Part shown: one piece after another, positions 2,602 to 55,288 of the stretch
Position numbering within the stretch: position 1 is the stretch's first letter
How the letters are laid out: every line of letters starts with the position of its first letter
Translations under genes and position numbers: made by a program
Notes under the pieces: model-generated
The model's input: the letters and a program-made list of their open reading frames with translations, nothing else
What the model was told of the DNA's origin: nothing
Database searches by the model: none
Assembly: GCA_001661245.1 (NCBI GenBank)
Contig: KV454013.1
Coordinates: 1,334,502 to 1,398,501 of the forward strand
Direction of reading: 5' to 3'
Length of the DNA stretch: 64,000 nt
Source of the DNA: Pachysolen tannophilus NRRL Y-2460
Taxonomy: Eukaryota

Positions 2602-3998
2602 TCTATCGTTCAAAAGCCAATATTCGTTCTTGTATTATTTATCTGGAAAGGAATGAAACAAACAAACAAAAAAATATGCCAACACGAGTTCTCTGGAATT
2701 TAATATTTTATTAAAGGAGCGTAATAAGTTGGATTAAATGCTTTTTCTTTTACGAAAAAAATAACAAACCACAACAACAATCCCAGAATTAAGTGCTGAG
2801 TTAGCTTTTCTTTTCAAAAAAAACAAAAAAAAAAAAAAAAAAATCAAAAAAGTAGATAAAGAATACTATAATACCGGTTGAGGAAAAGTAATTCTATATA
2901 AAGTCGCTTTTCAAAAAAAAAAAAAATGTTTATAAAAGCTTAGATAAAAAGAAATTTTTAATAGGTAAAAGGTAAAAAAGAAGTTTGAAACCTTTTATTG
3001 AAAATGGCCAGCCAGTATGTAGTAATATTATCATTACAATATAAGAATGATGTAGGCTTGCGTTACTTAAGTAAGCATGAAATTTTGTTACAGGTTGGTG
3101 GTTTTCTACTAATTACTATGAGGAGGTAAAAAAAAACATAAAAAGATAAACACGCCTAGCACCATAAAATAAGAAAAGGGAAGGAAAATTTTGTTATTAA
3201 ATTTCTCTTTTAAGGCATAAATACTCATGCATGCTGCAGATCTATAGTTGTAATATGCATGTTAATTTAACCTTGCATAATGAATTGTACCAAGTGGCTG
3301 GTGGCGGGCGAAAAAAAAAAGAAAAAAGAAAAAAGATCGAGAAAAAAGGGTCGCGGTATGAACCTCATCAGACAAATGTTTAATACCGCCTTTTGTTCCC
3401 CCTTTTAATACTGGTGATAAACGATAAAGGATTCTTAAACCTCATTCTTTCCACCATTCTATCATCCATTAGGTGCGATGGTTTTTTGGTTCCTTGAAAG
3501 TTCTTGAATTTGGTATCTTGAATTTGGCACCGGGAGCATGAGTACAATCTTAACAAATTGCAGAGAGGCTATTTTTTCCAATTTGTCTAGCTTTAAAACT
3601 TTAAGTTCACTTATTATGCAAACAGAAAAGACTATATAATATTAGTAGTAGCTAAGCTGAAAAATTCTCCATTTTTCGCTTCTAGCTTTTCAGGTGTAAA
3701 ACTAAGAAAACTACGTAACTACAAGGCTAATTTTTCATCTTACTTTGTTTACCGTCACAAAAGGGTTGATTTAAACTCTCTTGTAGAATGAATGTACCAA
3801 GTCAACTCACTATTAGTAGCAGCAGCACATTTATTTGAGTTGGGTACAAACTAGATATAACGGCAAAATCTAAAAAAAAAAAAATTAAGTTTTTTTTTTT
3901 TCTCTCTCTTTTTTGCTTTTTAACAAACGTCTGTCTATTTTATACTTTAAACAAATACAGGTAGGTAGGTAAGTAAGGTGATTTGTTTTCTTTTATCC

Positions 3999-4054
3999 TT
4001 TCGCGTGTAGCTCGAATATCTTTTAAGTTTGGGGCTGGTGTTCTGGATTTCGTG
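3999..4054 (-). promoter_or_regulatory. Two SCB-like elements (CGCGAAA, CACGAAA) upstream of TOS1
   Basis: TTTCGCG at 3999-4005 and TTTCGTG at 4048-4054. TOS1 is an SBF target in S. cerevisiae, but these lie ~1.4 kb from the ATG. Confidence 0.35.
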
Positions 4055-4208
4055 TTTTTTTTTTTTTCTTTTTCATTTATTTCCCTTTAAGGTTTTAAGT
4101 TACAATTTTTTTTTTTTTAAACGAATCAATTTTTCACTGCTGATGCATCATTGCAGCTAAATAACAGTAATTTGTGCCGAAAAACATAATAAAAAAATTC
4201 TTTCAACA

Positions 4209-4280
4209 ATAAGTACTCACTCATCATATATATATATATATATATATAAATGATGATGAGTGAGTTGAGTGAGTACTTAT
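4209..4280. repeat. Inverted repeat flanking a (TA)n tract
   Basis: ATAAGTACTCACTCA (4209-4223) and its reverse complement TGAGTGAGTACTTAT (4266-4280) surround a TA microsatellite. Confidence 0.85.
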
Positions 4281-4375
4281 CTACCAACAACAAAGAAGAT
4301 AATAATATTGATCCAGAATCTGAATTGTAAAGTTTTTTTTTTTTTTTTTTTGGCTTCTCTTTACATAAAAAATTT

Positions 4376-4401
4376 TAAAATTTTAGAATTCTAAAATTTT
4401 A
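4376..4401. repeat. Perfect 26-bp palindrome
   Basis: TAAAATTTTAGAATTCTAAAATTTTA equals its own reverse complement. Confidence 0.85.
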
Positions 4402-5021
4402 TTTTTTTCTTTTTTATTGTTTGACCTGAAAATTTTTTTTCATCTTCGTCATAGTTCAGATTTGTAAAAGCTGATATTTTTTTAATTTTGTTTTATTTTA
4501 TTTTTATTGTCTTGTTACATTCTCTAACTAATAGTTTATATAGGTAAGTTTAACATCTAAAGTCTAAAGTTTAACTCTTGAAAAACTTTTTCAGTTTTAT
4601 GAAAACCATCTAGGCCCTTTGTTTGCTTGTTTAAAAATCAAATCAGTTCTAGGAACAAGAATTTGATAGAACTAAGCCTCGGCTGAAGTTATCTTGATCT
4701 CAGCACCTTCACCTGTTCATTTTCTATTTTGTACTCTGACTAAATTTATAAACCCCTTACTTCAAAGCTTTTTACTTTGTGTATGAAAAAAAAAATTTTT
4801 TTCATTTTTTTTTTCATCAGCATTTTTGTAATACTTATTTTGATGGCTTTATTTAAACCACTTTGAATGCGGCTACATACATATATTATTTTACATTTTT
4901 AAAAAGTTACCCCTTATCCTTGAACTAAAATCAAAAATCAAATTAACTTGAATATTATATATATATATATAACATAAAAAAGGTTTATAGAATTGTATAT
5001 AAAAGAAATTTAAAAATTCAT

Positions 5022-7100
5022 CTATAAATTTTCCGTTTTCTTTTTTTCTCTTTTAATAAATTCTTTATAAAACCCATTTGAAATTCTGTATAAAGAACTT
5101 CTTCCATCGTATAAAGGATATACACCTATCAGAAGTAAAGCCAGATAAACCCAGATAAGTGACATTGTAGTCCAACCTCTGAAAAATGCTTTTCCAAATA
5201 TATAATCACGATAAAGTGGTAAGGGCCATACAACCCAAGTGATTAAGAAAACCAGAAGTGCTGCACCATAAGCAATCTTGATGTATAAGTTAATAATTCT
5301 TTGATTTTCTTGAGCTTCTTGTGATTCAATTGAATTTAATAATTCAGGATCTGTTTCAATAATTTGTACATCTGGTGAAATTTTTTCAGTAACACCACCA
5401 TAATTAGAATTACCTTGATCTTCAGCTAATGAAGAATTACTAGATGAAGATTTTTTCTCTTTATTTTCTTCAACATCATCTTCAGGAGTAACAAGGGAAG
5501 CTTGTTGAAGAATAGACCAATCAAATTTATAATTTCTATCTGCTAAACTTAAAATCACAGATATTAAACCTGGAAGGAAAAGTGCAACTAATCCACCATA
5601 TAAACAAGGTAATTGCCCACCTGTACTGGTAATGCTTATTACACCGTAAAATTTATAAGCTGTAGATAACCATGTAGCAATACCTGCAGCCATTCCAATG
5701 ATTGGAGAAACGAAAAATGCTAGTTTTGTTTGTTTATCCCAAGTAATCGCAAAAAGTAATGGAATAACACCAGGACAGATGATCATTGAATAGAAATAAC
5801 CAAACCAAGTCATATTTACTCCAACATAATGAAGCATTAAACTAAAACCTGCAGAGAAAAGTCCAAAAAATACAACTCCAAAATGAGAAAGTCTAATTAA
5901 TTGATGATTTTGTGCATCTTTATTAATATAACTTTTATAAATATCAAATGACATGATACTACTGACTGAAATCATTTGAGCACTAACAGTAGAAGTAACA
6001 GCAAGATAGATAACCAACAATAATCCAGCTAAAGAATTTTTACCCAAAACTGCTTTCAAAGTATATGGTAACCCATACCCACTATCTATTTCATCTGTTG
6101 TCATGGTTCTTGGATAAGTTGGGAAAATTTTACTACTTTCCAATACAACATTTGCTAATCCAACAATAGTTCCCAATGGCCAAACAATAGCAAAGATTGC
6201 AACTGCAGCAATCAAATAACCTGGAACTGATGCTCTAATACTAGCACTAAAACTTTTTTGCCAAAATGAGCTATCCATAATAGTTAATCCAAAATCACCA
6301 ATTGCATGGATTATACCAAAATAAATGGAACCTTTTGATTTACCAGTTAAAAAAGAACCTTCAAAATTACCTTCAATCGATCTACCACTTTTATTTTCAA
6401 TGACCATATCGTAAAGACTATCAATACCACCAATTTCACTGGAAGTTAACACTGCAGTATTGAAATAACATAAAATTATTAAAGCTATTATTGAATGAAT
6501 ATAATCAGTAAGAAATGTAGCCCTCAAACCACCAAAAGTTGTATACATTAAGACTCCAACAGGAATTAACATTGTACTTGCAGCAATATTCATGTTACCA
6601 GCAATAACGGAAATTGCACCAGCAGCACCCAAAATCATTGATGAAGATGATAATAAATTTGTACTCAAACATAAAAATAAATACAAGATATGACAAGCTT
6701 TACCATATCTTAACTTGACAATTTCTAAACTTGTATGACCATTTGGAATCTTCTTTTTCGCTTCTATACCAATAACGGCCATTATACAGATATGAACTGA
6801 AAGTCCTGCACCGTACCAGAAACTTGCCATAATACCATAGCTATACACCATAGTAACAACCCATAAAGTTTCAGTTGCCCAAAACCAACTACTAAAAGTA
6901 GCACTAGCAGTTAAGGCAACACCAACAGATCTATTACTAAGCATCCACTGCTCAGTTGAGTGCAAGTTTTCCCCAAGGTAGCGACTCATGAGCTTTGTTG
7001 CAACCCATACTCCAAGAGCAAATAATGTACCAATTCCTACTAAAACACCATACCCAGAGCCTTGGTTTAAAAGTTCAATAGTAGTTGTTTCTGAAGACAT
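5022..7100 (-). CDS. Dur3-family sodium:solute symporter (urea/polyamine transporter-like)
   Basis: Many hydrophobic segments. Dur3-like motifs LNQGSGYGVLVGIG, PNGHTSLEIVKLRYG, GGLRATFLTDYIH, AVTSTVSAQMISVSSIMSFDIY, VVWPLPLY. Looks like a divergent paralogue, so no symbol given. Confidence 0.9.
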   Translation of the reverse strand: MSSETTTIELLNQGSGYGVLVGIGTLFALGVWVATKLMSRYLGENLHSTEQWMLSNRSVGVALTASATFSSWFWATETLWVVTMVYSYGIMASFWYGAGLSVHICIMAVIGIEAKKKIPNGHTSLEIVKLRYGKACHILYLFLCLSTNLLSSSSMILGAAGAISVIAGNMNIAASTMLIPVGVLMYTTFGGLRATFLTDYIHSIIALIILCYFNTAVLTSSEIGGIDSLYDMVIENKSGRSIEGNFEGSFLTGKSKGSIYFGIIHAIGDFGLTIMDSSFWQKSFSASIRASVPGYLIAAVAIFAIVWPLGTIVGLANVVLESSKIFPTYPRTMTTDEIDSGYGLPYTLKAVLGKNSLAGLLLVIYLAVTSTVSAQMISVSSIMSFDIYKSYINKDAQNHQLIRLSHFGVVFFGLFSAGFSLMLHYVGVNMTWFGYFYSMIICPGVIPLLFAITWDKQTKLAFFVSPIIGMAAGIATWLSTAYKFYGVISITSTGGQLPCLYGGLVALFLPGLISVILSLADRNYKFDWSILQQASLVTPEDDVEENKEKKSSSSNSSLAEDQGNSNYGGVTEKISPDVQIIETDPELLNSIESQEAQENQRIINLYIKIAYGAALLVFLITWVVWPLPLYRDYIFGKAFFRGWTTMSLIWVYLALLLIGVYPLYDGRSSLYRISNGFYKEFIKREKKKTENL

Positions 7101-7236
7101 TGTAGAATATTATAGATTTCTTTTTGTCAATTAATTTTACTCCCGAATCGACCTTAAGATCCAACGGTTATGTATATCCATATTTATATATAGCAGAAGA
7201 GAAATTATTATCTCTCAACAGAGAATTGCGTGTTAA

Positions 7237-7570
7237 CCACAGTAGATTTTCAATATACTCAGGAAAAGAATTTTTAATTTGAGAATTTGCAATGACATTA
7301 CTTCAAACTTCTGTCAATCAAAAGACGGTGATGTCAAATCTCATGTATGTATGTATCTATCTATTCAATAAGATTTGAGGTCAGAAACCTACATTTTGTT
7401 CAATTTTGACCTTGAAAAAAAAAACCCACAGTTTTAACAACAATGCAACATCATGCTTGATCCCCAATATTCGGTTAATCTTAGAAAGATTCTAGAAACT
7501 AAATTCTCTGTTGAACGTGTTGAACGTTTTAGTTATATTTCGTAATTATGTGAAGTTTTATCACAGTTAT
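7237..7570. promoter_or_regulatory. Met31/Met32-type sites in the divergent promoter between the transporter and the monooxygenase
   Basis: CCACAGTTT at 7426-7434 is the exact reverse complement of AAACTGTGG. Partial sites CCACAGT at 7237-7243 and TCACAGTTAT at 7561-7570. Confidence 0.7.
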
Positions 7571-7776
7571 AACTTCAAATTCCAAAAGAGGAATTAGTAT
7601 AGGTGTGGCTTCAATTTTTCAATTTTACAAAACTTTACAATTGGATGTCGTCAATCAAAAAGAAACCAAAGCCTATAATATAAAGAAAGAAGAGAAGAAG
7701 CAAGAATAAACAAGAATATGTGTGTAACTTAATGAATAAACTAACTTATTAACTTTTTATCTGTTTTAAAGAAAAA

Positions 7777-9279
7777 ATGACCAACGAGATTAAACCAAAG
7801 AAAAAGCTCATTATCAATGCTTTTGATATGGGCTGCATTGGACTTCAAAACCCTGGATTATGGACACATCCTGATGATACCAAGGCAAGTGGTTATAAGT
7901 CAATTGAATATTGGACTAATCTAGCTAAATTGTTAGAAAAGGGGAAATTTAATGCACTTTTTTTAGCTGATGTCTTGGGGGGTTATGATGTCTATAATGG
8001 TCCAAGAAATATTGCTCCTGCTGCAAGAGCCGCAGCCCAATGGCCTGTAAATGAACCAAGTGCTGTTGTACCAGCTATGGCAGCAGTTACTAAAAATTTA
8101 TGTTTTGGTATAACTTTTAGTACCATCAGTGAAGCACCTTATCATTTAACCAGGAGATTAGCAACTTTGGATCATTTGACTAAGGGAAGAGTTGGTTGGA
8201 ATGTGGTTTCTTCTTATTTGGACAGTGCAGCAAGAAATTTGTTAAATGGTGAACCATTACCAGAGCATGACGAAAGATATGTTAGAGCAGCCGAATATAT
8301 TCAAGTTGTTTATGAGTTGTTTTTATCATCTTGGAGAGATGATGCCGTCATTAATGATAGGAAAAAAAGAATTTATACAGACCCTGAAAGAGTTAGAGAA
8401 ATTAATTTTGAAGGCAACTATTTCAAAGTTCCTGGTCCAAATATAACTGAACCTACTCCTCAAAGATTACCAGTTATTTTACAAGCTGGAACATCAAGTG
8501 CAGGTAAAGATTTTGCTGCAAAAAATGCCGAATCTGTTTTCGTTACAGGATTTTCTCCAGAAAGTTTGAAAACTCAAATTGATGCTATCAAAAGTATTGC
8601 CAAAAATAAATATAATAGAGAAGAAGGTACAATTAAATTTGTTCAATTGGTAACTGTTATTATTGGTCAAACTTTTGAAGAAGCTGAAAAGAAATATGAA
8701 GAATATAGAAGCCATGGTGATATTCAAGGTGCACAAGCTCTTTTCAGTGGATGGACTGGGATTGACATTGGCCAATTTGACGAGAAAGAAGAATTGAGAG
8801 ATGTGGGATCAAATGCAGTCCGTGGATTTGTTGATAATTGGACTAAATCAGCACCAGGAGATCCACCAAATTTGAAAAAAACTAGAGAATATGTTGCTAA
8901 GCAAATCACTGTTGGTGGATTGGGTCCTGTTTTCCACGGCACAGCAACTCAAGTTGCTGATGAAATTGAAAAATGGGTAAATATCTCTGGAATAGATGGA
9001 TTTAATTTCACTTATGCTGTTTCACCTGGCTCTTTTGAAGATATCGTTGAATATTTAATTCCAGAATTACAAAAAAGAGAATTGGTATGGGATGATTATC
9101 CAGAAAGTAAAGTAGGTGATGAACCTTCACTTTCTTTCCGTGAAAGTTTATTCGGTACTGACCGTGAAGATCCAAAATTCTTGCTTCCTTCCCATCCTGC
9201 AGGAAAATTGAGATGGACTCCAGAGTTTTCTAAAGAAGAATTTGAAAAGTACATCACTGAGTTAAAGGAAAATTCATGA
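7777..9279 (+). CDS. Bacterial luciferase-like FMNH2-dependent monooxygenase (NtaA/SnaA/DszA family)
   Basis: Motifs YWTNLAKLLEKGKFNALFLADVLG, LATLDHLTKGRVGWNVVSSY, HDERYVRAAEY, PTPQRLPVILQAGTSSAGKDFAAKNAE, DGFN, LIPELQKR. Confidence 0.93.
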   Translation: MTNEIKPKKKLIINAFDMGCIGLQNPGLWTHPDDTKASGYKSIEYWTNLAKLLEKGKFNALFLADVLGGYDVYNGPRNIAPAARAAAQWPVNEPSAVVPAMAAVTKNLCFGITFSTISEAPYHLTRRLATLDHLTKGRVGWNVVSSYLDSAARNLLNGEPLPEHDERYVRAAEYIQVVYELFLSSWRDDAVINDRKKRIYTDPERVREINFEGNYFKVPGPNITEPTPQRLPVILQAGTSSAGKDFAAKNAESVFVTGFSPESLKTQIDAIKSIAKNKYNREEGTIKFVQLVTVIIGQTFEEAEKKYEEYRSHGDIQGAQALFSGWTGIDIGQFDEKEELRDVGSNAVRGFVDNWTKSAPGDPPNLKKTREYVAKQITVGGLGPVFHGTATQVADEIEKWVNISGIDGFNFTYAVSPGSFEDIVEYLIPELQKRELVWDDYPESKVGDEPSLSFRESLFGTDREDPKFLLPSHPAGKLRWTPEFSKEEFEKYITELKENS

Positions 9280-9464
9280 TCTCTTAATGTTTGCCACTAT
9301 GCTACACGAACATAGTAGTTAGTAGTCTTTTGTTGTGTTTGCTTTTTTTTTTTTTTTATATATATATTTTATTTTATTCAATAAAATACATGAAAAGTTA
9401 TTATTTTACAAAAAATTCAATTTTATATTATATATATATTAAAAATCATATTTTTTAATAAATA

Positions 9465-10607
9465 TCAGTTTTTTAAAGAAACTACGTACTTTGAACCACT
9501 TGCTCCTTGTTTTTGTAATACGTCTAATGCTTTACTAACCGTTCCTAGATCTCCTTCAAATACCTTTGTTCTGATTGGTTTCACCAAGCCAGTTTCTAAA
9601 AATTTAGATGTCAGCTTAACAAAGCTTTCACCAAAATCAAGATCTTCATGAAATTGCTTTATAGCAATTTCTTTAATAATAACGTTTGGTTGATTTGATG
9701 TCTTTGGGTGGGAAACAATTCCAACAAATTGTGCTGGCTTCAGTATACGATTTTTCTTATCACCTAGTATATCGATAACAGAAAGCGAGGTTTCTTTTGA
9801 AAAACAATCAACTCCAAATGCAATTGATCTTTTATCAGCATATATTTTTTTCAAAATAGTATCCAAATCGTTATTCCTATCAATGACAATATCAGCACCA
9901 ATTTCATTTATTAAATAATCTCTGTTTTTTTTACTTGCAATTGAAATAACAGTGAGACCTAAAATTTTGGCCAATTGAGTTAAATACATTCCAACCACTG
10001 TAGAACCTCCCCAAATGAGTAAAGATTCTCCTCTATAACGTTTTGTAAAATCCAATTGAAAACTTTTCAAAAGAACAACACCAGCGGTTACCAAGCCAAC
10101 ACCAATCGTTGCACCATCTTCAAAAGTAATATGAGAAGGTAATTTCCAAACTAAACGTTTGTTCATAACGGTATATTCTTGGAAAGTACTGGTTCTATTA
10201 TCTCTATAGCTAGTACTGGCAACAATTACTCTTTCATCAATCAAATCCTTTTCCTCTCCGTGTTGTTTAACAACATAACCACTGCTTTCTCTACCATTGA
10301 TCCATGGGAAATGATACATTCCAAATTTAAACTTTTTACATTTCCAATCAACTGGATTCAACCCAATAGCTTTATTTTTAATCAAAATTTCATCCAGGTT
10401 TAAAGTGGAAATGGGATACTCTGTTTCATGAGATAATGGCTCCGTGAAATCTGTCACAACCACTGCACTTTGAATCGTTTGAGAAAACTCAAGTATCTCT
10501 TTTTCATGAATCTCAGATACTTTGTTCTTAGCGTCTTGGTAGACATTTCTTTCCACACTCCAATCACTATTATTACTAGTAGTAGTAACCTTGATATAAG
10601 ACAGCAT
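9465..10607 (-). CDS. Medium-chain dehydrogenase/reductase, enoyl-reductase/quinone-reductase-like (Zn-free)
   Basis: EILIKNKAIGLNPVDWK, GRESSGYVV, FQEYT, ITFEDGATIGVGLVTAG, LLIWGGSTVVG nucleotide-binding motif, GASGSKYVV. No catalytic Zn ligand set. Confidence 0.88.
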   Translation of the reverse strand: MLSYIKVTTTSNNSDWSVERNVYQDAKNKVSEIHEKEILEFSQTIQSAVVVTDFTEPLSHETEYPISTLNLDEILIKNKAIGLNPVDWKCKKFKFGMYHFPWINGRESSGYVVKQHGEEKDLIDERVIVASTSYRDNRTSTFQEYTVMNKRLVWKLPSHITFEDGATIGVGLVTAGVVLLKSFQLDFTKRYRGESLLIWGGSTVVGMYLTQLAKILGLTVISIASKKNRDYLINEIGADIVIDRNNDLDTILKKIYADKRSIAFGVDCFSKETSLSVIDILGDKKNRILKPAQFVGIVSHPKTSNQPNVIIKEIAIKQFHEDLDFGESFVKLTSKFLETGLVKPIRTKVFEGDLGTVSKALDVLQKQGASGSKYVVSLKN

Positions 10608-10746
10608 TTTGTATTTTTGGAGAGAATAGAAACAAATTCCAAGCTACAGAAAAACCAATTGTAGTAGTTCCATCATTTATATCTGCTCTATCCAATTATT
10701 CTACCCAACGAAACTCCGAATTTGAAATGTCAAAAGTCTCTTCTAT

Positions 10747-10929
10747 AACTGTGGCAAAAGATACACTCAATAAGCAGTGAGCCATGGTTTGTAAATCATT
10801 TCTCCTTTCAACTAAACTCTGATGTAAACCCCCAATCTCGTTTCCCCCGAAAGAGAAAAAAATGAGTACTTAAGGAATAGTACTGTGTCTCGGATTATGC
10901 AGAGTTTGTTGAAAAAAAAGAAGCCACAG
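10747..10929. promoter_or_regulatory. Met31/Met32-type sites in the divergent promoter between the MDR and the FMO
   Basis: AACTGTGGC at 10747-10755, ACTGTG at 10882-10887, GCCACAG at 10923-10929. Confidence 0.65.
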
Positions 10930-11028
10930 AAAATGTGAAAGATTTTCACATTTAATACCGATAGAATATATAATGAAGATGATAGATGATTTGTAAAGAC
11001 GATGGTAATACACTGAACAAACTAGAAC

Positions 11029-12579
11029 ATGTCAGGTAGTAAAAAATTTAATATAAACTCTATTGCTATCATTGGGGCCGGCCCAGCCGGTCTTGCTTCA
11101 TTAAATGAATTTTTACATACTAATAAGGATGGTTCTACAACAATTCATACAGATCATCTAGCTGAAGAGCCTGCATTTGAGAAAATAGTTGCCTTTGAGC
11201 AAAAAAATAAAGCTGGAGGCATATGGATGCCACTTGAAAAACCAGCTAATGATGATGTTAAGTTCATACCTCAAGGTATCTTGGACACCGAACTGTATTC
11301 TGATCCTGGTGTTCTTACTACAACTGATTTTGCAAAAATTCCTGATGGCCTAACCTCTCAACAAAGAATCAATGTAAAAGTTTCTGATGAAGAACGGTTA
11401 CAATATGAGAAGTGGATTGCTAAAAGTGGTATTTATGAAGACCTATATACTAATGTTCCTGAGAAATATACTAGATTTTCTTATCAATTAGAAGAACCAA
11501 ATTATAAAGATGAAACTAGAGACATACATCCATTTTTAACAGTAGGAGAGTTATCAAAAAGATTTGAAAATTTAATTGTAAAGGAAAAATTATCAAATTA
11601 TATAAGAACAAATACCACAGTAGTTAAAGTTGAGAAAAATTCTAATAAATGGGTTTTAACCTTGAGGAAATATGATCTTTCAACACATTCGTTTGAATGG
11701 TACCAAGAAGAGTTTGATGCTGTTGTTATTGCCAATGGTCATTATTCATTGCCAAACATTCCACATATTGACGGCTTAGCTGATTATAATAAAGTTTTCC
11801 CTGAGAAATTGATCCATGCTAAATCTTATTCTAACATTGATGATTTTAAAGGTAAAAAAGTGTTATTTGTTGGAAATAGTATTAGTGGTGTTAGTCTCAT
11901 ACAATATGCCTTCCCTGTTGCTAAAGAAGTTTTAGTTTCAAGAAGAGGTCCTCATATTGCTTTCCCCTGGGTTAATGATGCTATTGCATCAAATGGAATC
12001 AAATTGAAGCCAACTATTGAAAAATTTCTTCCAAAGGAAAATGCTATTTTATTCAGTGATGGTACTAAAGAGTACGACGTTGATCTTGTAGTCTTTGCAA
12101 CTGGTTATCATTATCATTTCCCATTTTTCCCAAAGGATAACGAATATTTTAAAGTTAAAAATGCTTCTAATTTAAGTTGGGTCTCTGGTTTTTATTTAGA
12201 TGATTTTTCTATCAAGGATCCAACTTTAACCGCTGTTGGGTTGACTGTTACTCATTTAAATTTTAGTTCTATAGAGGCAAGCGCAGCTGCAATTGCTGGA
12301 GTTTGGTCAAATGCAAAAGAGTTACCATCAAACGAAGTTCAAGAAAAATGGGTTTCAAAGAGATTGGAGGCCACTGGAGACAACATCTTATTTCATTATT
12401 ATAAAATTAATGAAGTGAAGGAAGGTATTATTGATCAATTACTTGAATTTGCTCCAAATGGAAGAAATAATCCTCTTGAAGGTGGTGATCAGGAAACCAA
12501 AAATTTAGAACTGGGGTTCAAATCATCAGAGCTGTTATTTTACAAGTTTAAAGATGGAAAATTAACATTGAAATCTTAG
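11029..12579 (+). CDS. Flavin-containing monooxygenase (Fmo1-like)
   Basis: IAIIGAGPAG FAD motif, FEQ..AGGIW, YEDLYTN, FDAVVIANGHY, FMO fingerprint variant FPEKLIHAKSY, VGNSISG, ATGY. Confidence 0.92.
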   Translation: MSGSKKFNINSIAIIGAGPAGLASLNEFLHTNKDGSTTIHTDHLAEEPAFEKIVAFEQKNKAGGIWMPLEKPANDDVKFIPQGILDTELYSDPGVLTTTDFAKIPDGLTSQQRINVKVSDEERLQYEKWIAKSGIYEDLYTNVPEKYTRFSYQLEEPNYKDETRDIHPFLTVGELSKRFENLIVKEKLSNYIRTNTTVVKVEKNSNKWVLTLRKYDLSTHSFEWYQEEFDAVVIANGHYSLPNIPHIDGLADYNKVFPEKLIHAKSYSNIDDFKGKKVLFVGNSISGVSLIQYAFPVAKEVLVSRRGPHIAFPWVNDAIASNGIKLKPTIEKFLPKENAILFSDGTKEYDVDLVVFATGYHYHFPFFPKDNEYFKVKNASNLSWVSGFYLDDFSIKDPTLTAVGLTVTHLNFSSIEASAAAIAGVWSNAKELPSNEVQEKWVSKRLEATGDNILFHYYKINEVKEGIIDQLLEFAPNGRNNPLEGGDQETKNLELGFKSSELLFYKFKDGKLTLKS

Positions 12580-12895
12580 AAATGTTATTTATAGTTAGTT
12601 ATATAATATATAATTTATATATATATATTTATTCATACAGAAAATAAAATAAAGAGAATAAATAGACAAAGCTTAACTCCATAATTCACCAAACAAATCA
12701 TCATAATTTGTCGAATATACATCAATATATCTGAAAAAATAAAAAAAAAAATAAAAATAGAAATCAAACCATAACCTGATTAATGATAATAAAATAAAAT
12801 ACAAAACCGATAATAAAAAAATTAAATATAGAAACTATTTTTCAAAAATAACAACATCAAAGTTCCTTTTCCTTTGCATTATACTTGGAAGAATT

Positions 12896-13541
12896 TTAAA
12901 CTGAAATAATAGTAGGATACAATTGTTTCTTTGTAAGTTGTTCCACTTGTTTACCTTCCGATTCACCATCACGCTTCTGGTAATTTATAAGAGCCTCTTC
13001 AAAGGATTGAACTATTTCATTCAAAAACTTTCTATGTTTAGTAATTTGAGTCTCTGTGATATCATCTTTCGTAATATCAAGTCCTGATAATTTAGTAACC
13101 AAATCATCCTCAGAATCAGCTTCTTTCGTTTTAATATCTGCACTAGATGATTTTTGGTTTGTACTGATATTGTGTCTTGTTATGAGATTATTATAAGAGT
13201 GATTGTTTGCTGGAGGTACCGGGTTATTGACATAATAATTATTGCCATTGTAACTTCCCCCAGGAAATTGCATAACCAATTTGTTGACATCAGAAGACGG
13301 CAAAACTGGGTAAAAGACATTTTGCAGAGGATAAGGATTTTTGAGATTCATATGTTGCAGTGATTGCAGTGGTTGTGGCAGTTGTGGCAGTTGTGGCAGC
13401 TGTTGCAGTTGCTGGTGTGGAGGATAAACATAATTTAAAGATTTCGATAACTGGTTGAAGAAGTTGCTGGCTTCTACCAAATCTTGATGACTGTTGAAGA
13501 ACATGTATTGTTGCAGTTGTTGCAGTTGTTGCAGTTGCAGA

Positions 13542-14986: not shown

Positions 14987-15062
14987 CCTCGTTACCTTGA
15001 CTGATCGATCAATATATCACCAAAAAAAAAGAAAAAAAANAANAATAATAATAATAATAATT

Positions 15063-15521
15063 NNNNNNNNNNNNNNNNNNNNNNNNNNNNNNNNNNNNNN
15101 NNNNNNNNNNNNNNNNNNNNNNNNNNNNNNNNNNNNNNNNNNNNNNNNNNNNNNNNNNNNNNNNNNNNNNNNNNNNNNNNNNNNNNNNNNNNNNNNNNNN
15201 NNNNNNNNNNNNNNNNNNNNNNNNNNNNNNNNNNNNNNNNNNNNNNNNNNNNNNNNNNNNNNNNNNNNNNNNNNNNNNNNNNNNNNNNNNNNNNNNNNNN
15301 NNNNNNNNNNNNNNNNNNNNNNNNNNNNNNNNNNNNNNNNNNNNNNNNNNNNNNNNNNNNNNNNNNNNNNNNNNNNNNNNNNNNNNNNNNNNNNNNNNNN
15401 NNNNNNNNNNNNNNNNNNNNNNNNNNNNNNNNNNNNNNNNNNNNNNNNNNNNNNNNNNNNNNNNNNNNNNNNNNNNNNNNNNNNNNNNNNNNNNNNNNNN
15501 NNNNNNNNNNNNNNNNNNNNN
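15063..15521. other. Assembly gap (N run)
   Basis: Run of N. Confidence 0.99.
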
Positions 15522-15544
15522 NTAATTTTACTTAATTAATATAT

Positions 15545-15585
<41 letters not shown>

Positions 15586-15608
15586 CTTTTTTTAAATGAT
15601 ATTTTCGC

Positions 15609-15615
15609 TGCCAAG
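15609..15615 (+). promoter_or_regulatory. Rim101/PacC consensus site upstream of RIM101
   Basis: TGCCAAG. Single site, and its distance to the ATG spans an N-gap. Confidence 0.35.
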
Positions 15616-15867
15616 ACTTTTTCTTTCTTTTTGCTATTTTACTTAAATAATCGCATAATCAACGTTTTATTATACGCTCACTGATTTGAACAATTAGGAA
15701 ATGGATTTTAAAGAAGAATAGCATTTATAGGAATAAACTAAAAATTAGTTAATTTAGTTAGCTTGCTAGCTAAATAAGTTGAATGAATAGATAATTTTAC
15801 ATTTTACCAAAAAAATAATGTCTAATGATGTTTAATGTTTGGTATTCAAAGTGTCTAAGAAGTGAAA

Positions 15868-15898
<31 letters not shown>

Positions 15899-16106
15899 GA
15901 GCACTTTCTGAAAGGAAGTAAAAAAATAGTGTACAATTATTTCAGACTAACAGTGGACGTGAAAAAAAAAGAAGAAGAAGAAGAAAACACAAACAAATTG
16001 TAAAATTAAAGTAAATGTAAGTATAATATGTATGATTGAATTAAAAGTAAATTAAACCAAATTTTTTAATTTGAAGGGGATAATATATGTATTGTCTTTT
16101 ATCATT

Positions 16107-52040: not shown

Positions 52041-52217
52041 TTTTTCCAACAAACAAACAAATAATAACCTAATCGATTGATTAATCAAATCAAATTAATT
52101 AGATATTAATTATAGTTATAGATTGTTTGTTATTCATTTAAACTTATTCCAGGCTGCTTTTTAATCAATTTTTTCTCTTTTATTTTTTCTCTTTTTTTTT
52201 TTTTTTTTCTACGTGTT

Positions 52218-52590
52218 NNNNNNNNNNNNNNNNNNNNNNNNNNNNNNNNNNNNNNNNNNNNNNNNNNNNNNNNNNNNNNNNNNNNNNNNNNNNNNNNNNN
52301 NNNNNNNNNNNNNNNNNNNNNNNNNNNNNNNNNNNNNNNNNNNNNNNNNNNNNNNNNNNNNNNNNNNNNNNNNNNNNNNNNNNNNNNNNNNNNNNNNNNN
52401 NNNNNNNNNNNNNNNNNNNNNNNNNNNNNNNNNNNNNNNNNNNNNNNNNNNNNNNNNNNNNNNNNNNNNNNNNNNNNNNNNNNNNNNNNNNNNNNNNNNN
52501 NNNNNNNNNNNNNNNNNNNNNNNNNNNNNNNNNNNNNNNNNNNNNNNNNNNNNNNNNNNNNNNNNNNNNNNNNNNNNNNNNNNNNNNNNN
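52218..52590. other. Assembly gap (N run)
   Basis: Run of N. Confidence 0.99.
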
Positions 52591-53353
52591 TTTTTTTTTT
52601 TTTTTTTTCAAGTTCTTAATGACACGTGTTTAATGGCAGATCCAATTTTTTTTTTTTTAATTTTCTTTTAATTTAAAGTCGTTCATTTAAAACACAATAC
52701 GCAATTTTTCGAGATCGCATTTTAAATAAGTAAACTTAATAAAATATTTTTTTTTTAAAATTACGTCATCATCATTTTTTTTTTTTTATTTTTCTCTTTT
52801 TTAAGATTTCCGGTCGGGGTAGTATTCCAATCTATTAAAAAATAAAAACAAAGCAAAAAGTGGGGAACAAAAAAAGCCGTTCATTTCCAATGTCGGTGAG
52901 GGGTAGGGTAGAATTTAAAAAAAAAAGAAAATAAAATTAGATTAAAAAAGGGCTCTTAAAAGTCTCAAAAATGTCTTAAAAAAGTTACTAGTTTCTCTTG
53001 GTTTTCTTTGTATTTGCGTGTGATCATTTATAAATCAATTTTTTATTTTATTTTTTTACCAACTCCGATTCCCGCTAATTGCGATCTCCGAAACTGGAAC
53101 TATAGTGGTACTAAAAAAGGGGCAAAAGGAAGAAATTTAGGGCAAAAAGGGGGTGATTCCTATTATTTTACTTTATTATATAAAAAAAAATCAAGAACAA
53201 GAACAAGAACAAGGTACTAAAGTGGAGAAGTTACTCCAATTCACATTTACAAAAAGAAAAGAAAAAGAACACAAATATGAAAATGAGCATTTTTATTGGC
53301 TAGATGTAATGAATTAAGAATCAATATTAAAACGTAAAAATCTTTATACTTAG

Positions 53354-53364
53354 CGGTTCAATGG
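53354..53364 (+). promoter_or_regulatory. Carbon-source-responsive element (Cat8/Sip4-type) upstream of the aldehyde dehydrogenase
   Basis: CGGTTCAATGG; its reverse complement CCATTGAACCG fits CCRTYSRNCCG. Confidence 0.5.
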
Positions 53365-53686
53365 TTTATTGCATTGCATTAATAAAATCTCTTTTTTTTC
53401 TTTTACTTTCTTTTACTTTCTTCTTTTTTTTTTTTTTTTTTTATTTTCATTATTAATCATCAGAGTAAACCCCCTCCTTTTAACAAATGCTTAAACTACG
53501 ATCATCTATCTGTTTCATTTAGTTTAATTTGATAATTGTGGAGAGCAATCAAATTATTCATATATATATATATATATAAGTATATAAAAGTAGAGCAATT
53601 ATATATTTGATACTTTTTTTTTTTTTTATATATATTCTTTTATTATATAGTTTGAGAAATAAATAAATAAAATTCAAATAAAAAAA

Positions 53687-55288
53687 ATGTTGAGAGTATC
53701 TACTTTTACTGGTGCTAAAGTTACTGGTACAACAACTATTAGAACTACAATTGGTTCTCAACAATTAATTACAAAATCTTTATTACTGAGATTTTATTCG
53801 TCTCAAATTCCTTTAAAAGTTCCAGTTACTTTACCAAATGGTATTAAATATGAACAACCAACAGGTTTATTTATTAATAATGAATTTGTTGCTTCGAAAC
53901 AAGGTAAAACATTTGAAGTTTTAAATCCTTCAACTGAAGATGTTATTTGTGATGTTTATGAAAGTAGAGAAGAAGATGTTGATCTTGCTGTGGATGCTGC
54001 TTCAAAAGCTTTTAATTCAGAATGGTCTTCTCAAGATCCTGCAATTCGTGGTGAATATTTATTAAAATTGGCTGATTTAATTGAAGAACATAGTGAAGTA
54101 TTGGCTGGTATTGAAGCTTTAGATAATGGTAAAGCTTTAATTTCTCTGAGAGGTGATGTAGCTTTAGTTGCTAAATATTTAAGATCTTGTGGAGGTTGGG
54201 CCGATAAAATTTTTGGTTCATTAATTGAAACTGGTGATTCTCATTTTAATTATGCAAGAAGAGAACCTCTTGGAGTTTGTGGTCAAATTATTCCATGGAA
54301 TTTCCCATTATTAATGTGGTCTTGGAAAGTTGGTCCTGCATTAGCTACAGGTAATACTGTTGTTTTAAAATCTGCTGAAAGTACACCTCTTTCTGCTTTA
54401 TATGCTTCTCAATTAGTTAAAGAAGCTGGTTTCCCAGCTGGTGTTGTTAATACTTTATCTGGTTTTGGTAAAATTACTGGTAATGCTATTGCTGCTCATC
54501 CAAAAATTAAAAAAGTTGCATTTACAGGTTCAACAGCAACTGGTAAACATATCATGAAAACTGCTGCAGAATCAAATTTGAAAAAAGTAACTTTAGAATT
54601 GGGTGGTAAATCTCCAAATATTGTTTTTGAAGATGCTGATATTAATAAAGCTGTTGCAAATATTATCTTGGGTATTTATTATAATTCTGGTGAAGTTTGT
54701 TGTGCAGGTTCAAGAGTTTATGTTCAAGAAAGTATTTATGATGAAGTTGCAAAAGCTTTTAAAGCTGCTGCAGAACTGGTTAAAGTTGGTGATCCTTTTG
54801 AAAATGGAGTTTTCCAAGGTCCACAAACTTCTCAAAATCAATTAAATAAAATTTTAGATTATATTAATATTGGTACTCAAGAAGGTGCTACTTTAATTAG
54901 TGGTGGTAAAAGAAAAGGTAATAAAGGTTATTTTGTAGAACCAACAATCTTTGGTGATGTTTCTGAAGATATGAGAATTGTTAAAGAAGAAATTTTTGGT
55001 CCAGTTGTTACAATGTCAAAATTTAAAGATGTTGATGAAGTTATTAAATTAGGAAATGATACTGAATATGGTTTAGCTGCTGGTATACATACTACTAACT
55101 TGAATACAGCCATTAAAGTTGCTCATTCCCTTAAAGCAGGTACTGTTTGGATTAATACTTATAACGATTTCCATCAAATGGTTCCTTTCGGAGGTTTCGG
55201 CCAATCAGGTATTGGTAGAGAAATGGGTAAAGAAGCTTTAGATAATTATACTCAAGTTAAAGCAGTACGTATTGCACGTACCAACTAA
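53687..55288 (+). CDS. Mitochondrial aldehyde dehydrogenase (Ald4/Ald5-like)
   Basis: Arg/Thr/Ser-rich presequence, [54 protein letters not shown]. Strongly biased codon usage. Confidence 0.96.

What the first reader, a model, noticed from the sequence alone, without database searches (positions are those of the whole stretch)
5022..12579. Candidate sulfur-starvation organosulfur-scavenging gene cluster (symporter + DszA-like monooxygenase + MDR + FMO)
Seen: four intronless accessory genes in two back-to-back divergent pairs, between TOS1 and RIM101. Both shared promoters contain ACTGTG/CACAGT-core sites, and the enzymes are Cys/Met-poor. Known: the NtaA/DszA luciferase-like family includes C-S bond-cleaving enzymes, FMOs oxygenate sulfur nucleophiles, and AAACTGTGG is the Met31/Met32 site. 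Inference: a co-regulated import, S-oxidation and C-S cleavage pathway that releases sulfur from an unknown sulfide/sulfone/sulfonate. I know of no characterised yeast cluster with this composition. The flavin reductase partner that DszA-type enzymes need is not in the window.
Basis: partly seen in the sequence, partly recalled or inferred. Interest (0 to 1): 0.85.

Follow-up and report, generated by a model that had tools for sequence, protein, structure and literature searches.

The report
Yeast sulfur-starvation organosulfur-scavenging gene cluster
Four neighbouring yeast genes (an importer, two flavin oxygenases and a reductase) look like a co-regulated kit for extracting sulfur from small organic sulfur compounds when sulfur is scarce; its parts were already known from Candida, but their conserved physical linkage apparently was not.

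Summary
Four intact, intronless ORFs form two divergent pairs between TOS1 and a PacC/RIM101 gene:
- a DUR3-family SSF symporter
- an NtaA/DmoA-family FMNH2 monooxygenase
- a zinc-less MDR reductase
- an FMO

Four lines of evidence support a Met4/Met32 sulfur-starvation function.
- **Promoter motifs.** In an unbiased k-mer comparison, the words most enriched in both shared promoters are pieces of the Met31/32 site (T)AACTGTGGCTTC. GATA, Cbf1, Gcn4, Yap1, STRE and PDRE sites are absent.
- **Composition.** The three enzymes are strongly Cys/Met-poor. The FMO has 0 Cys and 1 internal Met in 516 aa.
- **Relatives.** The closest C. albicans FMO is FMO5, which is Met32-bound and sulfur-starvation-induced in print. 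PF00296 monooxygenases and DUR paralogues are Met4-dependent or sulfur-starvation-induced in Candida.
- **Linkage.** Linkage recurs in Priceomyces carsonii (FMO–x–LLM–symporter) and C. railenensis. Partial linkage is seen in W. ciferrii, Y. tenuis, L. fermentati, Sarea resinae and an intron-bearing fungus.

The monooxygenase is closer to DMS monooxygenase DmoA and to LadA than to DszA. No flavin reductase lies in the window. The substrate, the order of steps and the expression here were not tested.

The concept is known; the conserved cluster, and its suggestion that DUR3 paralogues import organosulfur, is a modest novelty.

The parts
5022..7100 (-). DUR3-family sodium:solute symporter (692 aa); proposed importer of the organosulfur substrate
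   Evidence: PF00474 and TIGR00813. The best named C. albicans hit is Dur32p at 54%. Homologues lie next to LLM genes in P. carsonii, W. ciferrii and L001/L002.
7101..7776 (.). Divergent promoter shared by the symporter and the LLM, with Met31/32-type sites
   Evidence: Sites read: CCACAGT 7237-7243, CCACAGTTT 7426-7434 (= AAACTGTGG on the - strand), CACAGTTA 7562-7569, TGTGGCTTC 7604-7612. Counts are and k-mers. No GATAAG, CACGTG, Gcn4, YRE, STRE or PDRE site.
7777..9279 (+). NtaA/DmoA-family FMNH2-dependent luciferase-like monooxygenase (500 aa); proposed C-S cleaving step
   Evidence: TIGR03860 444 bits. PDB: DmoA 6ak1 E 8.6e-126, LadA 3b9n 3e-114, DszA 5tlc 6e-57. 82% identical to P. carsonii PRCAT00003539001. 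2 Cys and 2 internal Met.
9465..10607 (-). Zinc-less MDR (quinone-oxidoreductase / enoyl-reductase type) NAD(P)H reductase (380 aa); role least certain
   Evidence: ADH_N plus ADH_zinc_N. Best PDB hits are QOR/LovC-type at E 5e-17 to 1e-11. Atlas clusters are named 'enoyl reductase domain'. Only 2 Cys and no GHE zinc motif, read. Homologues are adjacent to an LLM in Y. tenuis and to an FMO in L. fermentati.
10608..11028 (.). Divergent promoter shared by the MDR and the FMO, with Met31/32-type sites
   Evidence: Sites read: AACTGTGGC 10747-10755(+), ACTGTG 10882-10887, GAAGCCACAG 10920-10929 (= CTGTGGCTTC on the - strand). Counts are and k-mers.
11029..12579 (+). Flavin-containing monooxygenase, yeast 'thiol-specific' FMO5-like clade (516 aa); proposed S-oxygenation step
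   Evidence: PF00743. PDB: S. pombe FMO 2gv8, E 8e-38. The best C. albicans hit is CAALFM_C305840WA = FMO5 at 46%. P. carsonii PRCAT00003537001 is 57% identical over 99% of the length. 0 Cys and 1 internal Met.

Best explanation
This is a four-gene cluster of the Met4/Met32 sulfur-limitation regulon, in a low-GC budding yeast whose closest named relative for these genes is Priceomyces carsonii. It serves to scavenge sulfur from small organic sulfur compounds.

Inferred mechanism:
1. When cysteine and methionine are scarce, Met32 with Met4 binds the (T)AACTGTGGCTTC-type sites in the two bidirectional promoters and switches on all four genes.
2. The DUR3-family symporter imports a small, probably uncharged, urea-sized sulfur compound. 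Candidates are a dialkyl sulfide, sulfoxide or sulfone, or a thiourea-like molecule.
3. The NADPH/FAD FMO oxygenates the sulfur atom, either of the substrate or of a thiol product.
4. The DmoA-like FMNH2 monooxygenase, fed by a flavin reductase encoded elsewhere, cleaves a C-S bond. This gives a thiol or sulfinate plus an aldehyde.
5. The zinc-less MDR reductase probably removes a reactive carbonyl or enone by-product.
6. The released sulfur enters the normal sulfite/sulfide route.

Shown here: gene identities, motif clustering, sulfur-poor composition, conserved linkage.
Taken from papers on relatives: induction and Met4/Met32 dependence.
Inferred: the substrate, the order of steps and the role of the MDR.
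For: **(1) Promoter motifs.**
- Among the 6-mers shared by the two promoters, the three most enriched against the other 25 intergenic regions of the window are TGTGGC (3 hits against 0 elsewhere), ACTGTG (5 against 1) and CTGTGG (4 against 2).
- At k = 7 the top word is ACTGTGG. At k = 8, AACTGTGG, TGTGGCTT and GTGGCTTC are among 11 words tied at the top (counts also).
- This matches AAYTGTGGCT, the motif over-represented in C. albicans sulfur-starvation promoters (PMC13170222, passages).
- As here, 4 of 4 C. parapsilosis PF00296 genes carry Met32 motifs and only 1 of 4 a Cbf1 motif (PMC11502921, Suppl. Table 3).

**(2) No rival regulator sites.** Both promoters have 0 hits for GATAAG, CACGTG, Gcn4, YRE, STRE and PDRE.

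**(3) Sulfur sparing.**
- FMO, LLM and MDR have 0.19%, 0.80% and 1.32% Cys+Met, against a window median of 2.3%.
- The yeast FMO5-like clade is mostly 0-0.4%. C. albicans FMO5 has 0 Cys and only its initiator Met in 536 aa.
- The 119 LLM homologues have a median of 0.99%.

**(4) Relatives in print.**
- The best C. albicans hit of the FMO is C3_05840W = FMO5. FMO5 is Met32-bound and strongly induced (Table 2, passages).
- DUR32, DUR7, DUR35 and DUR4, and the SOX1/SOX2 monooxygenases, are induced by sulfur starvation.
- In C. parapsilosis four PF00296 genes and DUR4 are induced, and the induction is lost in met4 but kept in met28 (Suppl. Table 2).

**(5) Linkage.**
- P. carsonii: FMO CUM65887, LLM CUM65889, symporter CUM65890.
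- C. railenensis: CAH2351269, CAH2351271 and CAH2351273.
- W. ciferrii: LLM CCH44663, symporters CCH44664 and CCH44665.
- Y. tenuis: LLM EGV64552 and MDR EGV64553.
- L. fermentati: FMO LAFE_0E05094g and MDR LAFE_0E05116g.
- Sarea resinae: MDR M1819_001688 and LLM M1819_001691.
- LLM, symporter and MDR homologues all have a longest contig of 20,563 bp, so they probably share one unnamed contig.
- Loci L001/L002: a symporter divergent from the LLM in an intron-bearing fungus.

**(6) Chemistry.** The LLM aligns end to end with the C-S cleaving DMS monooxygenase DmoA (E 8.6e-126).
Against: - **No expression data for this organism.** No RNA run was listed.
- **Motif statistics are post hoc.** They use overlapping words, and the background is only 18.3 kb of intergenic DNA from the same window. 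The ChEC-derived degenerate motif RBTGTGGYKB is not enriched (1 hit, P 0.16). Window-wide counts equal the shuffles.
- **The symporter is not sulfur-poor** (3.61%).
- **Symporter orthology is loose.** It is not sister to the syntenic P. carsonii symporter in the tree. It also sits on the opposite side of the midpoint root from Dur32, so the Dur32 expression data transfer only loosely.
- **The cluster is not universal.**
  - In D. fabryi (AC631_04189 against AC631_04776) and M. farinosa (Piso0_004140 against Piso0_003683), LLM and FMO are far apart by locus tag.
  - The Babjeviella accessions lie 48-286 apart.
  - 3 of 5 metagenome loci lack the symporter, and 5 of 5 lack the MDR and the FMO.
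- **Published knockouts gave no phenotype.** C. albicans fmo and sox mutants had no defect on taurine, and by the paper's discussion none on the sulfonates tested. No nutritional role has yet been shown for these families.
- **LadA is almost as similar as DmoA**, so the sequence does not prove a sulfur substrate.
- **MDR sulfur poverty is not specific.** It does not differ significantly from distant MDRs (P 0.069).
Confidence: 0.72

Rival explanations
1. A detoxification or redox-defence cluster rather than a nutritional one. Met32-controlled enzymes would oxidise and remove reactive or toxic sulfur species or xenobiotics (thiols, thioethers, allicin- or isothiocyanate-type compounds). The MDR would act as an enone/quinone reductase.
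For: - In C. albicans, Met32 also governs resistance to reactive sulfur species and redox genes (title and passages of PMC13170222).
- Yeast FMO homologues are named 'thiol-specific monooxygenase' by their sources.
- The MDR is of the quinone/enoyl-reductase type.
- The Linder review raises detoxification of plant sulfur compounds as an alternative role (PMC5857272, Introduction passage).
Against: - There are no Yap1 (YRE), STRE or PDRE sites in either promoter.
- A dedicated importer paired head to head with the monooxygenase, and conserved across fungi, fits uptake for use better than defence.
- Extreme sulfur sparing is the signature of proteins made when sulfur is lacking (the principle is recalled from the literature, not from a call).
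Confidence: 0.13
2. A nitrogen-scavenging set. It would comprise a urea/polyamine-type DUR3 importer, an NtaA/RutA-like monooxygenase acting on amines or amides and an N-oxygenating FMO, all under nitrogen catabolite repression.
For: - Sources annotate the DUR3 family as urea/polyamine transporters.
- The LLM family includes nitrilotriacetate and pyrimidine (RutA) monooxygenases.
- The mBio paper itself files the DUR genes under nitrogen metabolism and NCR derepression.
Against: - GATAAG occurs 0 times in both promoters, against 8 in the other intergenic DNA. GATAA is at background level: 3 seen, 3.3 expected.
- RutA and NtaA are far weaker matches (54 and 159 bits) than DmoA (424 bits).
- Met31/32 sites and sulfur-poor composition have no explanation under nitrogen control.
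- C. parapsilosis DUR4 induction is Met4-dependent.
Confidence: 0.05
3. No pathway at all. Four individually useful accessory genes would merely sit together, some or all of them separately Met32-regulated and acting on different substrates.
For: - The composition varies between species. Pairs (LLM-symporter, LLM-MDR, MDR-FMO) recur more often than the whole set.
- In D. fabryi and M. farinosa, LLM and FMO are unlinked.
- The symporter next to the LLM is not the same paralogue in this yeast and in P. carsonii.
Against: - The order FMO-x-LLM-symporter is the same in P. carsonii as here.
- Each of the three kinds of pair recurs in distant lineages, including a Saccharomycetaceae yeast, a lichen-associated ascomycete and an intron-bearing fungus.
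- Both bidirectional promoters carry the same motif.
Confidence: 0.1

Closest known systems
Candida albicans / C. parapsilosis Met4-Met32 alternative-sulfur regulon (SOX1/2, FMO1-5, JLP genes, DUR paralogues; PMC13170222, PMC11502921)
   Same: - The same three gene families are involved: PF00296 monooxygenase, FMO and DUR3-family symporter.
- The Met32-type motif is the same.
- The FMO here is closest to FMO5, a direct Met32 target.
   Different: - In the passages I read, those papers treat the genes as dispersed regulon members. They file the DUR genes under nitrogen metabolism.
- Here the genes form a physical cluster with an added MDR reductase.
- Orthology of this LLM to SOX1/SOX2 was not established: no C. 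albicans protein is among the 120 best LLM hits.
Bacterial DMS / dimethylsulfone assimilation by two-component flavin monooxygenases (DmoA; sfnG/msuD/ssuD with one flavin reductase; PMC13352529 abstract, PMC11588060 listing)
   Same: - An FMNH2-dependent luciferase-like monooxygenase, alignable end to end with DmoA.
- Control by sulfur starvation.
- The reductase is supplied in trans.
   Different: - The setting is eukaryotic, with bidirectional promoters instead of operons.
- S-oxygenation is presumably done by a single-component FMO.
- The importer is an SSF/DUR3 type rather than an ABC type.
- SfnG and SsuD themselves are only weak matches, at 77 and 61 bits.
Rhodococcus dszABC dibenzothiophene desulfurization
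   Same: The same NtaA/DszA superfamily and the same logic: S-oxidation followed by C-S cleavage, repressed by sulfur.
   Different: - DszA scores 196 bits against 424 for DmoA.
- No DszB or DszC homologue lies in the window.
- According to the Linder review, DszB has no fungal homologue.
S. cerevisiae regulon-like alternative-sulfur gene cluster around HSU1/YLL058W (with JLP1 and YCT1)
   Same: It is a yeast precedent for physically clustered, sulfur-limitation-induced scavenging genes (PMC9757880 passage). That the cluster includes a transporter and an oxygenase is recalled, not taken from a call.
   Different: - It uses other enzyme families: a 2-oxoglutarate dioxygenase and a homocysteine synthase.
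- It has no PF00296 monooxygenase, no FMO and no DUR3-type symporter.

Membership tests
NtaA/DmoA family FMN-dependent monooxygenase (TIGR03860; luciferase-like, PF00296) | Full-length match to the family model above its curated cut-off | tested here: met
   444.4 bits against a cut-off of 279.7, residues 14-444 on profile positions 2-417 of 422. PF00296 E 1e-35.
NtaA/DmoA family FMN-dependent monooxygenase (TIGR03860; luciferase-like, PF00296) | Two-component operation with a separate NAD(P)H:flavin reductase | not testable with these tools
   No reductase-type Pfam domain among the window ORFs of at least 120 aa. No whole genome is held.
DszA (dibenzothiophene sulfone monooxygenase) in the narrow sense | Closest characterised relative is DszA, with dszB/dszC partners nearby | tested here: not met
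   DszA 5tlc scores 196 bits, below DmoA (424), LadA (386), HcbA (255) and riboflavin lyase (213). No DszB- or DszC-like gene in the window.
Met4/Met32 sulfur-limitation regulon | Met31/32-type sites (AAACTGTGG / AAYTGTGGCT) in the promoter | tested here: met
   Both promoters carry them: 3 of 3 intergenic TGTGGC and 2 of 3 intergenic AAYTGTGG. They are also the top shared k-mers.
Met4/Met32 sulfur-limitation regulon | Induction on sulfur withdrawal, dependent on Met4/Met32 | not testable with these tools
   No RNA run was listed. It is shown only for homologues in Candida.
DUR3 urea/polyamine transporter | SSF fold and membership of the fungal DUR3-like family | tested here: met
   PF00474 and TIGR00813. 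53-65% identity to proteins that sources name urea transporters.
DUR3 urea/polyamine transporter | Orthology to the bona fide urea transporter, and nitrogen (GATA) control | tested here: inconclusive
   The best named C. albicans hit is the paralogue Dur32p, and no protein named DUR3 is among the 120 best hits. GATAAG occurs 0 times in its promoter. Transport itself was not tested.
Class B flavin-containing monooxygenase (FMO) | FMO-like domain with an N-terminal FAD GxGxxG and a second dinucleotide motif | tested here: met
   PF00743 E 2e-26. GAGPAG at residues 16-21, an FxxxxxHxxxY variant (FPEKLIHAKSY) and GNSISG are read; the motif definitions are recalled. S. pombe FMO 2gv8 E 8e-38.
Zinc-dependent alcohol dehydrogenase (classical MDR-ADH) | Catalytic-zinc ligands (Cys/His/Cys, GHE motif) | tested here: not met
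   The protein has only 2 Cys and no GHE, read; the motif definition is recalled. The best solved relatives are zinc-less quinone oxidoreductases and enoyl reductases. I therefore file it as QOR/ER-type MDR.

The most novel reading that the evidence does not exclude
The head-to-head pair of a DUR3-like symporter and a DmoA-like monooxygenase, with the FMO5-like and MDR genes often joined to it, is a widespread fungal module for assimilating small neutral, urea-sized sulfur compounds. Candidates are dimethyl sulfide, DMSO and dimethyl sulfone, or thiourea-type molecules.

If so, it would be the first eukaryotic gene cluster for DMS-type sulfur assimilation. It would also mean that a whole branch of fungal 'urea transporters' are in fact organosulfur importers. 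That would reinterpret the 'nitrogen cross-talk' reported in Candida sulfur-starvation transcriptomes.
Probability: 0.25. Interest if true: 0.7.

Novelty: new variant of a known kind. Interest (0 to 1): 0.45.

Why it matters
According to the 2018 review, fungal FMNH2-dependent monooxygenases had then not been characterised genetically or biochemically. In 2026, C. albicans knockouts still gave no phenotype on the sulfonates tested.

A conserved cluster narrows the search for the substrate. It links one DmoA-like enzyme to one importer, one S-oxygenase and one reductase. It also points away from sulfonates, towards small neutral thioether, sulfoxide or sulfone-type compounds.

It further suggests that the DUR paralogues induced by sulfur starvation belong to sulfur uptake rather than to nitrogen uptake. 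All of this can be tested with simple deletions and growth assays.

Tried and rejected
- **Whole genome.** None is held for this window. Paralogues and the flavin reductase partner could not be sought.
- **Expression.** No RNA holder was listed.
- **Laying contigs.** This only confirmed the assembly. The small-share run X6 gave two tiny identical pieces and no information on a relative.
- **Earlier notes of this scan.** There was nothing on this genome. Two bacterial organosulfur clusters turned up, and they did not bear on the reading.
- **Literature search for DmoA in yeasts or fungi.** It returned only DMOA (dimethylorsellinic acid) papers.
- **Literature search for DUR3 + luciferase-like + sulfur + gene cluster.** No yeast paper was found, so I found no printed description of this cluster. 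Linder 2012 is not in the library. I also did not read Supplementary Data 4 of PMC11502921 or the supplementary tables of PMC13170222, and any of these may bear on that claim.
- **Symporter tree.** It had 72 rows; 48 near-identical C. albicans-type rows were dropped.
  - All 9 rows known to be LLM-linked fall on the 41-row side of the midpoint root (support 85).
  - The label-shuffle test is not significant (176 of 500 shuffles as low), and the linkage of most rows is unknown. I count this as weak evidence only.
- **Degenerate ChEC motif RBTGTGGYKB.** Not enriched.
- **MDR sulfur poverty against distant MDRs.** Not significant, P 0.069.
- **Meaning of CTG.** It is unresolved.
  - Only 1 of 10 CTG positions in the symporter, FMO and MDR aligns mainly with Leu.
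  - 2 conserved ALD positions align with Ser in yeast Ald4.
  - The protein collection's own model of the FMO reads CTG as Ala.
- **MDR as the missing flavin reductase.** I considered this and set it aside, because nothing supports it.
- **The gene between FMO and LLM in P. carsonii (CUM65888).** It could not be fetched, so the presence of an MDR there is inferred and was not seen.

Full report
**What is there.** The window is low in G+C, about 30% over this region. It holds four uninterrupted ORFs at exactly the coordinates given.
- 5022-7100(-) is a 692-aa sodium:solute symporter (PF00474; TIGR00813).
- 7777-9279(+) is a 500-aa luciferase-like monooxygenase. It passes the NtaA/DmoA family model at 444 bits against a cut-off of 279.7.
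- 9465-10607(-) is a 380-aa medium-chain dehydrogenase/reductase.
- 11029-12579(+) is a 516-aa flavin-containing monooxygenase.

They form two head-to-head pairs with shared promoters of 676 and 421 bp. The two inner genes converge, with 185 bp between their ends.

The flanks are a Tos1 homologue and a C2H2 protein whose nearest Atlas clusters are named pacC/RIM101. Homologues cover 98-100% of each ORF, so the genes are intronless and intact. A 9518-bp contig of a sequencing run from another study spans 4363-13515 without a mismatch, so the arrangement is not an assembly artefact.

**Identity of the parts.**
- *Monooxygenase.* Its best solved relatives are:
  - dimethyl-sulfide monooxygenase DmoA (6ak1, E 8.6e-126), aligned over residues 8-444
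  - the alkane hydroxylase LadA (3b9n, 3e-114)
  - DszA (6e-57), NtaA (2e-46), SfnG, SsuD and RutA, which are much more distant

  'DszA-like' is therefore right for the superfamily, but the nearest characterised chemistry is thioether C-S cleavage or terminal hydroxylation.
- *FMO.* It belongs to the yeast clade that sources call thiol-specific monooxygenase. The closest solved structure is the S. pombe FMO.
- *MDR.* It has only two cysteines and no zinc motif (read). Its solved relatives are quinone oxidoreductases and LovC-type enoyl reductases, and its Atlas clusters are 'enoyl reductase domain' proteins of Ascomycota. Among 1.84 billion representatives, only 24 reach E 1e-30, so it is a narrow fungal subfamily.
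- *Symporter.* It is 53-65% identical to many yeast proteins annotated as urea transporters. The best named C. albicans hit is the paralogue Dur32p.
- *Species.* The closest named relative for the LLM (82%) and the FMO (57%) is Priceomyces carsonii.

**Promoter signal.** Window-wide, AAYTGTGG (8 hits) and TGTGGC (12 hits) are no more frequent than in shuffles. Their placement is what stands out.
- Among 27 intergenic regions (19.4 kb), the two shared promoters (1.1 kb) hold:
  - 3 of 3 TGTGGC
  - 4 of 6 CTGTGG
  - 5 of 6 ACTGTG
  - 2 of 3 AAYTGTGG
- An unbiased comparison of all k-mers shared by the two promoters, against the other intergenic DNA, ranks TGTGGC, ACTGTG and CTGTGG first at k = 6.
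- ACTGTGG ranks first at k = 7.
- At k = 8, AACTGTGG, TGTGGCTT and GTGGCTTC are among 11 words tied at the top.

Together these words spell (T)AACTGTGGCTTC. This is the Met31/32 site. The C. albicans study reports AAYTGTGGCT as the motif enriched in sulfur-starvation promoters and a similar motif at Met32-bound loci (PMC13170222, passages).

The sites lie about 100-540 bp upstream of the four start codons. Neither promoter has a GATAAG, CACGTG (Cbf1), Gcn4, Yap1, STRE, PDRE or Rim101 site.

Caveats:
- The words overlap.
- The test is post hoc.
- The background is small.
- The degenerate ChEC motif RBTGTGGYKB is not enriched.

**Composition.** Cys plus internal Met makes up 0.19% of the FMO, 0.80% of the LLM and 1.32% of the MDR. 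These rank 2nd, 3rd and 5th lowest of 28 window ORFs, whose median is 2.3%. The symporter, at 3.61%, is not depleted.

The depletion is a family trait. Among the 99 FMO homologues the lower quartile is 0.00%, and C. albicans FMO5 has no Cys and only its initiator Met in 536 aa. More distant filamentous-fungal relatives rise to 1-2.7%. The 119 LLM homologues have a median of 0.99%.

Eight of the ten closest MDR representatives are at or below 1.2%, but the contrast with distant MDRs is not significant (P 0.069).

Sulfur sparing in proteins made under sulfur shortage is an established principle. I recall it from the literature; it comes from no call.

**Relatives in print.**
- The Linder review states that yeast PF00296 genes carry sulfur-regulatory motifs, and that at that date they had not been characterised (PMC5857272, section 4).
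- In C. parapsilosis, four PF00296 genes (log2 fold change 2-8) and DUR4 (4) are induced without Cys/Met. They drop out in met4 but not in met28. All four carry Met32 motifs (PMC11502921, Suppl. Tables 2 and 3).
- In C. albicans, SOX1/2, FMO1/2/3/5, SSP96 and DUR32/DUR7/DUR35/DUR4 are induced by sulfur deprivation. Met32 binds the FMO5 promoter.
- The best C. albicans hit of the window's FMO is CAALFM_C305840WA, which is FMO5.
- That paper files the DUR genes under nitrogen cross-talk.
- The fmo and sox mutants had no defect on taurine, and by the paper's discussion none on the sulfonates tested.

**Linkage elsewhere.** I had no fungal genome DNA, so I used locus tags and consecutive accession numbers.
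- P. carsonii: FMO …3537001 (CUM65887), LLM …3539001 (CUM65889), symporter …3540001 (CUM65890). This is the same order as here, with one unseen gene where the MDR would be.
- C. railenensis: FMO CAH2351269, LLM CAH2351271, symporter CAH2351273.
- W. ciferrii: LLM CCH44663, then symporters CCH44664 and CCH44665 (CCH44664).
- Y. tenuis: LLM EGV64552 and MDR EGV64553.
- L. fermentati: FMO LAFE_0E05094g and MDR LAFE_0E05116g.
- Sarea resinae: MDR M1819_001688 and LLM M1819_001691.
- LLM, symporter and MDR homologues all have a longest contig of 20,563 bp, so they probably share one unnamed contig.

A scan of metagenome contigs with the LLM gave 5 loci.
- Two near-identical ones (L001/L002; 52% identity, exon-like pieces, so an intron-bearing fungus) have an SSF symporter at 6761-8777(-), divergent from the LLM at 10001-11724(+).
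- The other three lack it.
- None of the five has an MDR or FMO hit.

Against universality:
- LLM and FMO are far apart by tag in D. fabryi and M. farinosa.
- The Babjeviella accessions lie 48-286 apart.
- In a 72-row tree, the window's symporter is not sister to the syntenic P. carsonii one. All 9 LLM-linked rows lie on one side of the midpoint root, away from Dur32, but the shuffle test is not significant.

So the association is recurrent, with turnover of paralogues, rather than one frozen cluster.

**Interpretation.** The best reading is a Met4/Met32-controlled kit for scavenging organic sulfur.
1. The DUR3-type symporter imports the compound.
2. The FMO oxygenates sulfur, either on the incoming thioether or on a thiol product.
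3. The DmoA-like enzyme cleaves a C-S bond, using FMNH2 from a reductase encoded elsewhere. None lies in the window, and no genome is held.
4. The zinc-less MDR handles a carbonyl or enone by-product.

The substrate is unknown. Three things point to small neutral thioether, sulfoxide or sulfone-type compounds rather than sulfonates, but this is inference:
- the urea-sized cargo of the transporter family
- the kinship with DmoA
- the lack of a sulfonate phenotype in Candida mutants

The rivals are a detoxification role, nitrogen scavenging and mere co-location. They are weighed in their own sections.

**Novelty.** The idea that yeast PF00296 monooxygenases, FMOs and DUR paralogues respond to sulfur starvation is published. 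S. cerevisiae already has a 'regulon-like' alternative-sulfur cluster around HSU1 (PMC9757880 passage).

What I did not find in print is this cluster, its conservation, or the link between DUR3 paralogues and DmoA-like enzymes. Linder 2012 and several supplementary tables could not be read. I rate it a new variant of a known kind, of moderate interest.

Noticed in passing
window 11029-12579 (+): The protein collection's own gene model of the FMO (P0244) is 450 aa and starts at Met67. It therefore lacks the N-terminal FAD-binding GAGPAG. The full 516-aa ORF is supported by the 521-aa P. carsonii homologue, which aligns over 99% of it.
   Followed up: yes
window, CTG codons, e.g. 11029-12579 and 53687-55288: The same gene model reads the three CTG codons of the FMO as Ala. 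Only 1 of 10 CTG positions in the symporter, FMO and MDR aligns mainly with Leu. Two conserved CTG positions of the aldehyde dehydrogenase align with Ser in yeast Ald4, and one of them with Ala in another chain. CTG is probably not Leu here; Ser against Ala is unresolved.
   Followed up: partly
window 2602-5021: A 2.4-kb AT-rich spacer between TOS1 and the symporter holds only one ATG-started ORF of 50 aa or more (50 aa, 3231-3383). It is full of poly(A)/poly(T) tracts. Word depth in the 4501-5000 bin is 769-1993 against about 70-130 elsewhere, and many contig breaks fall there. It is low-complexity or dispersed-repeat DNA.
   Followed up: partly
window 13374-13397 (inside the RIM101-like ORF): TGTGGC occurs three times at 9-bp spacing inside the coding sequence. 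Contigs of two runs carry a 3-bp GCA insertion after 13386. This is an in-frame length polymorphism of a coding repeat.
   Followed up: no
window about 15041-15042, within 14987-16106: N letters, probably an assembly gap, lie in the region upstream of the RIM101-like gene. They blocked the first attempt to lay reads and probably lower the apparent G+C there (0.11).
   Followed up: no
window 52041-53686, upstream of the aldehyde dehydrogenase 53687-55288: This promoter holds an AATTGTGG at 53534-53541, about 150 bp before the ATG, and the count table gives 2 CACGTG hits. It is a possible Cbf1/Met32-type promoter on an Ald4-like gene. Aldehydes are the by-product of C-S cleaving monooxygenases.
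   Followed up: no
L001 6761-11724 (and the near-identical L002): In an intron-bearing fungus from a metagenome, a DUR3-family symporter and a DmoA-like monooxygenase sit head to head, as in the window. The neighbours include a lipase-type alpha/beta hydrolase but no FMO or MDR.
   Followed up: partly
C. parapsilosis CPAR2_407210 / CPAR2_407220 (from the paper): A PF00296 monooxygenase and a 2-oxoglutarate dioxygenase with consecutive gene numbers are both induced by Cys/Met starvation (PMC11502921, Suppl. Table 2). This suggests further small sulfur-scavenging gene pairs in CTG-clade yeasts.
   Followed up: no
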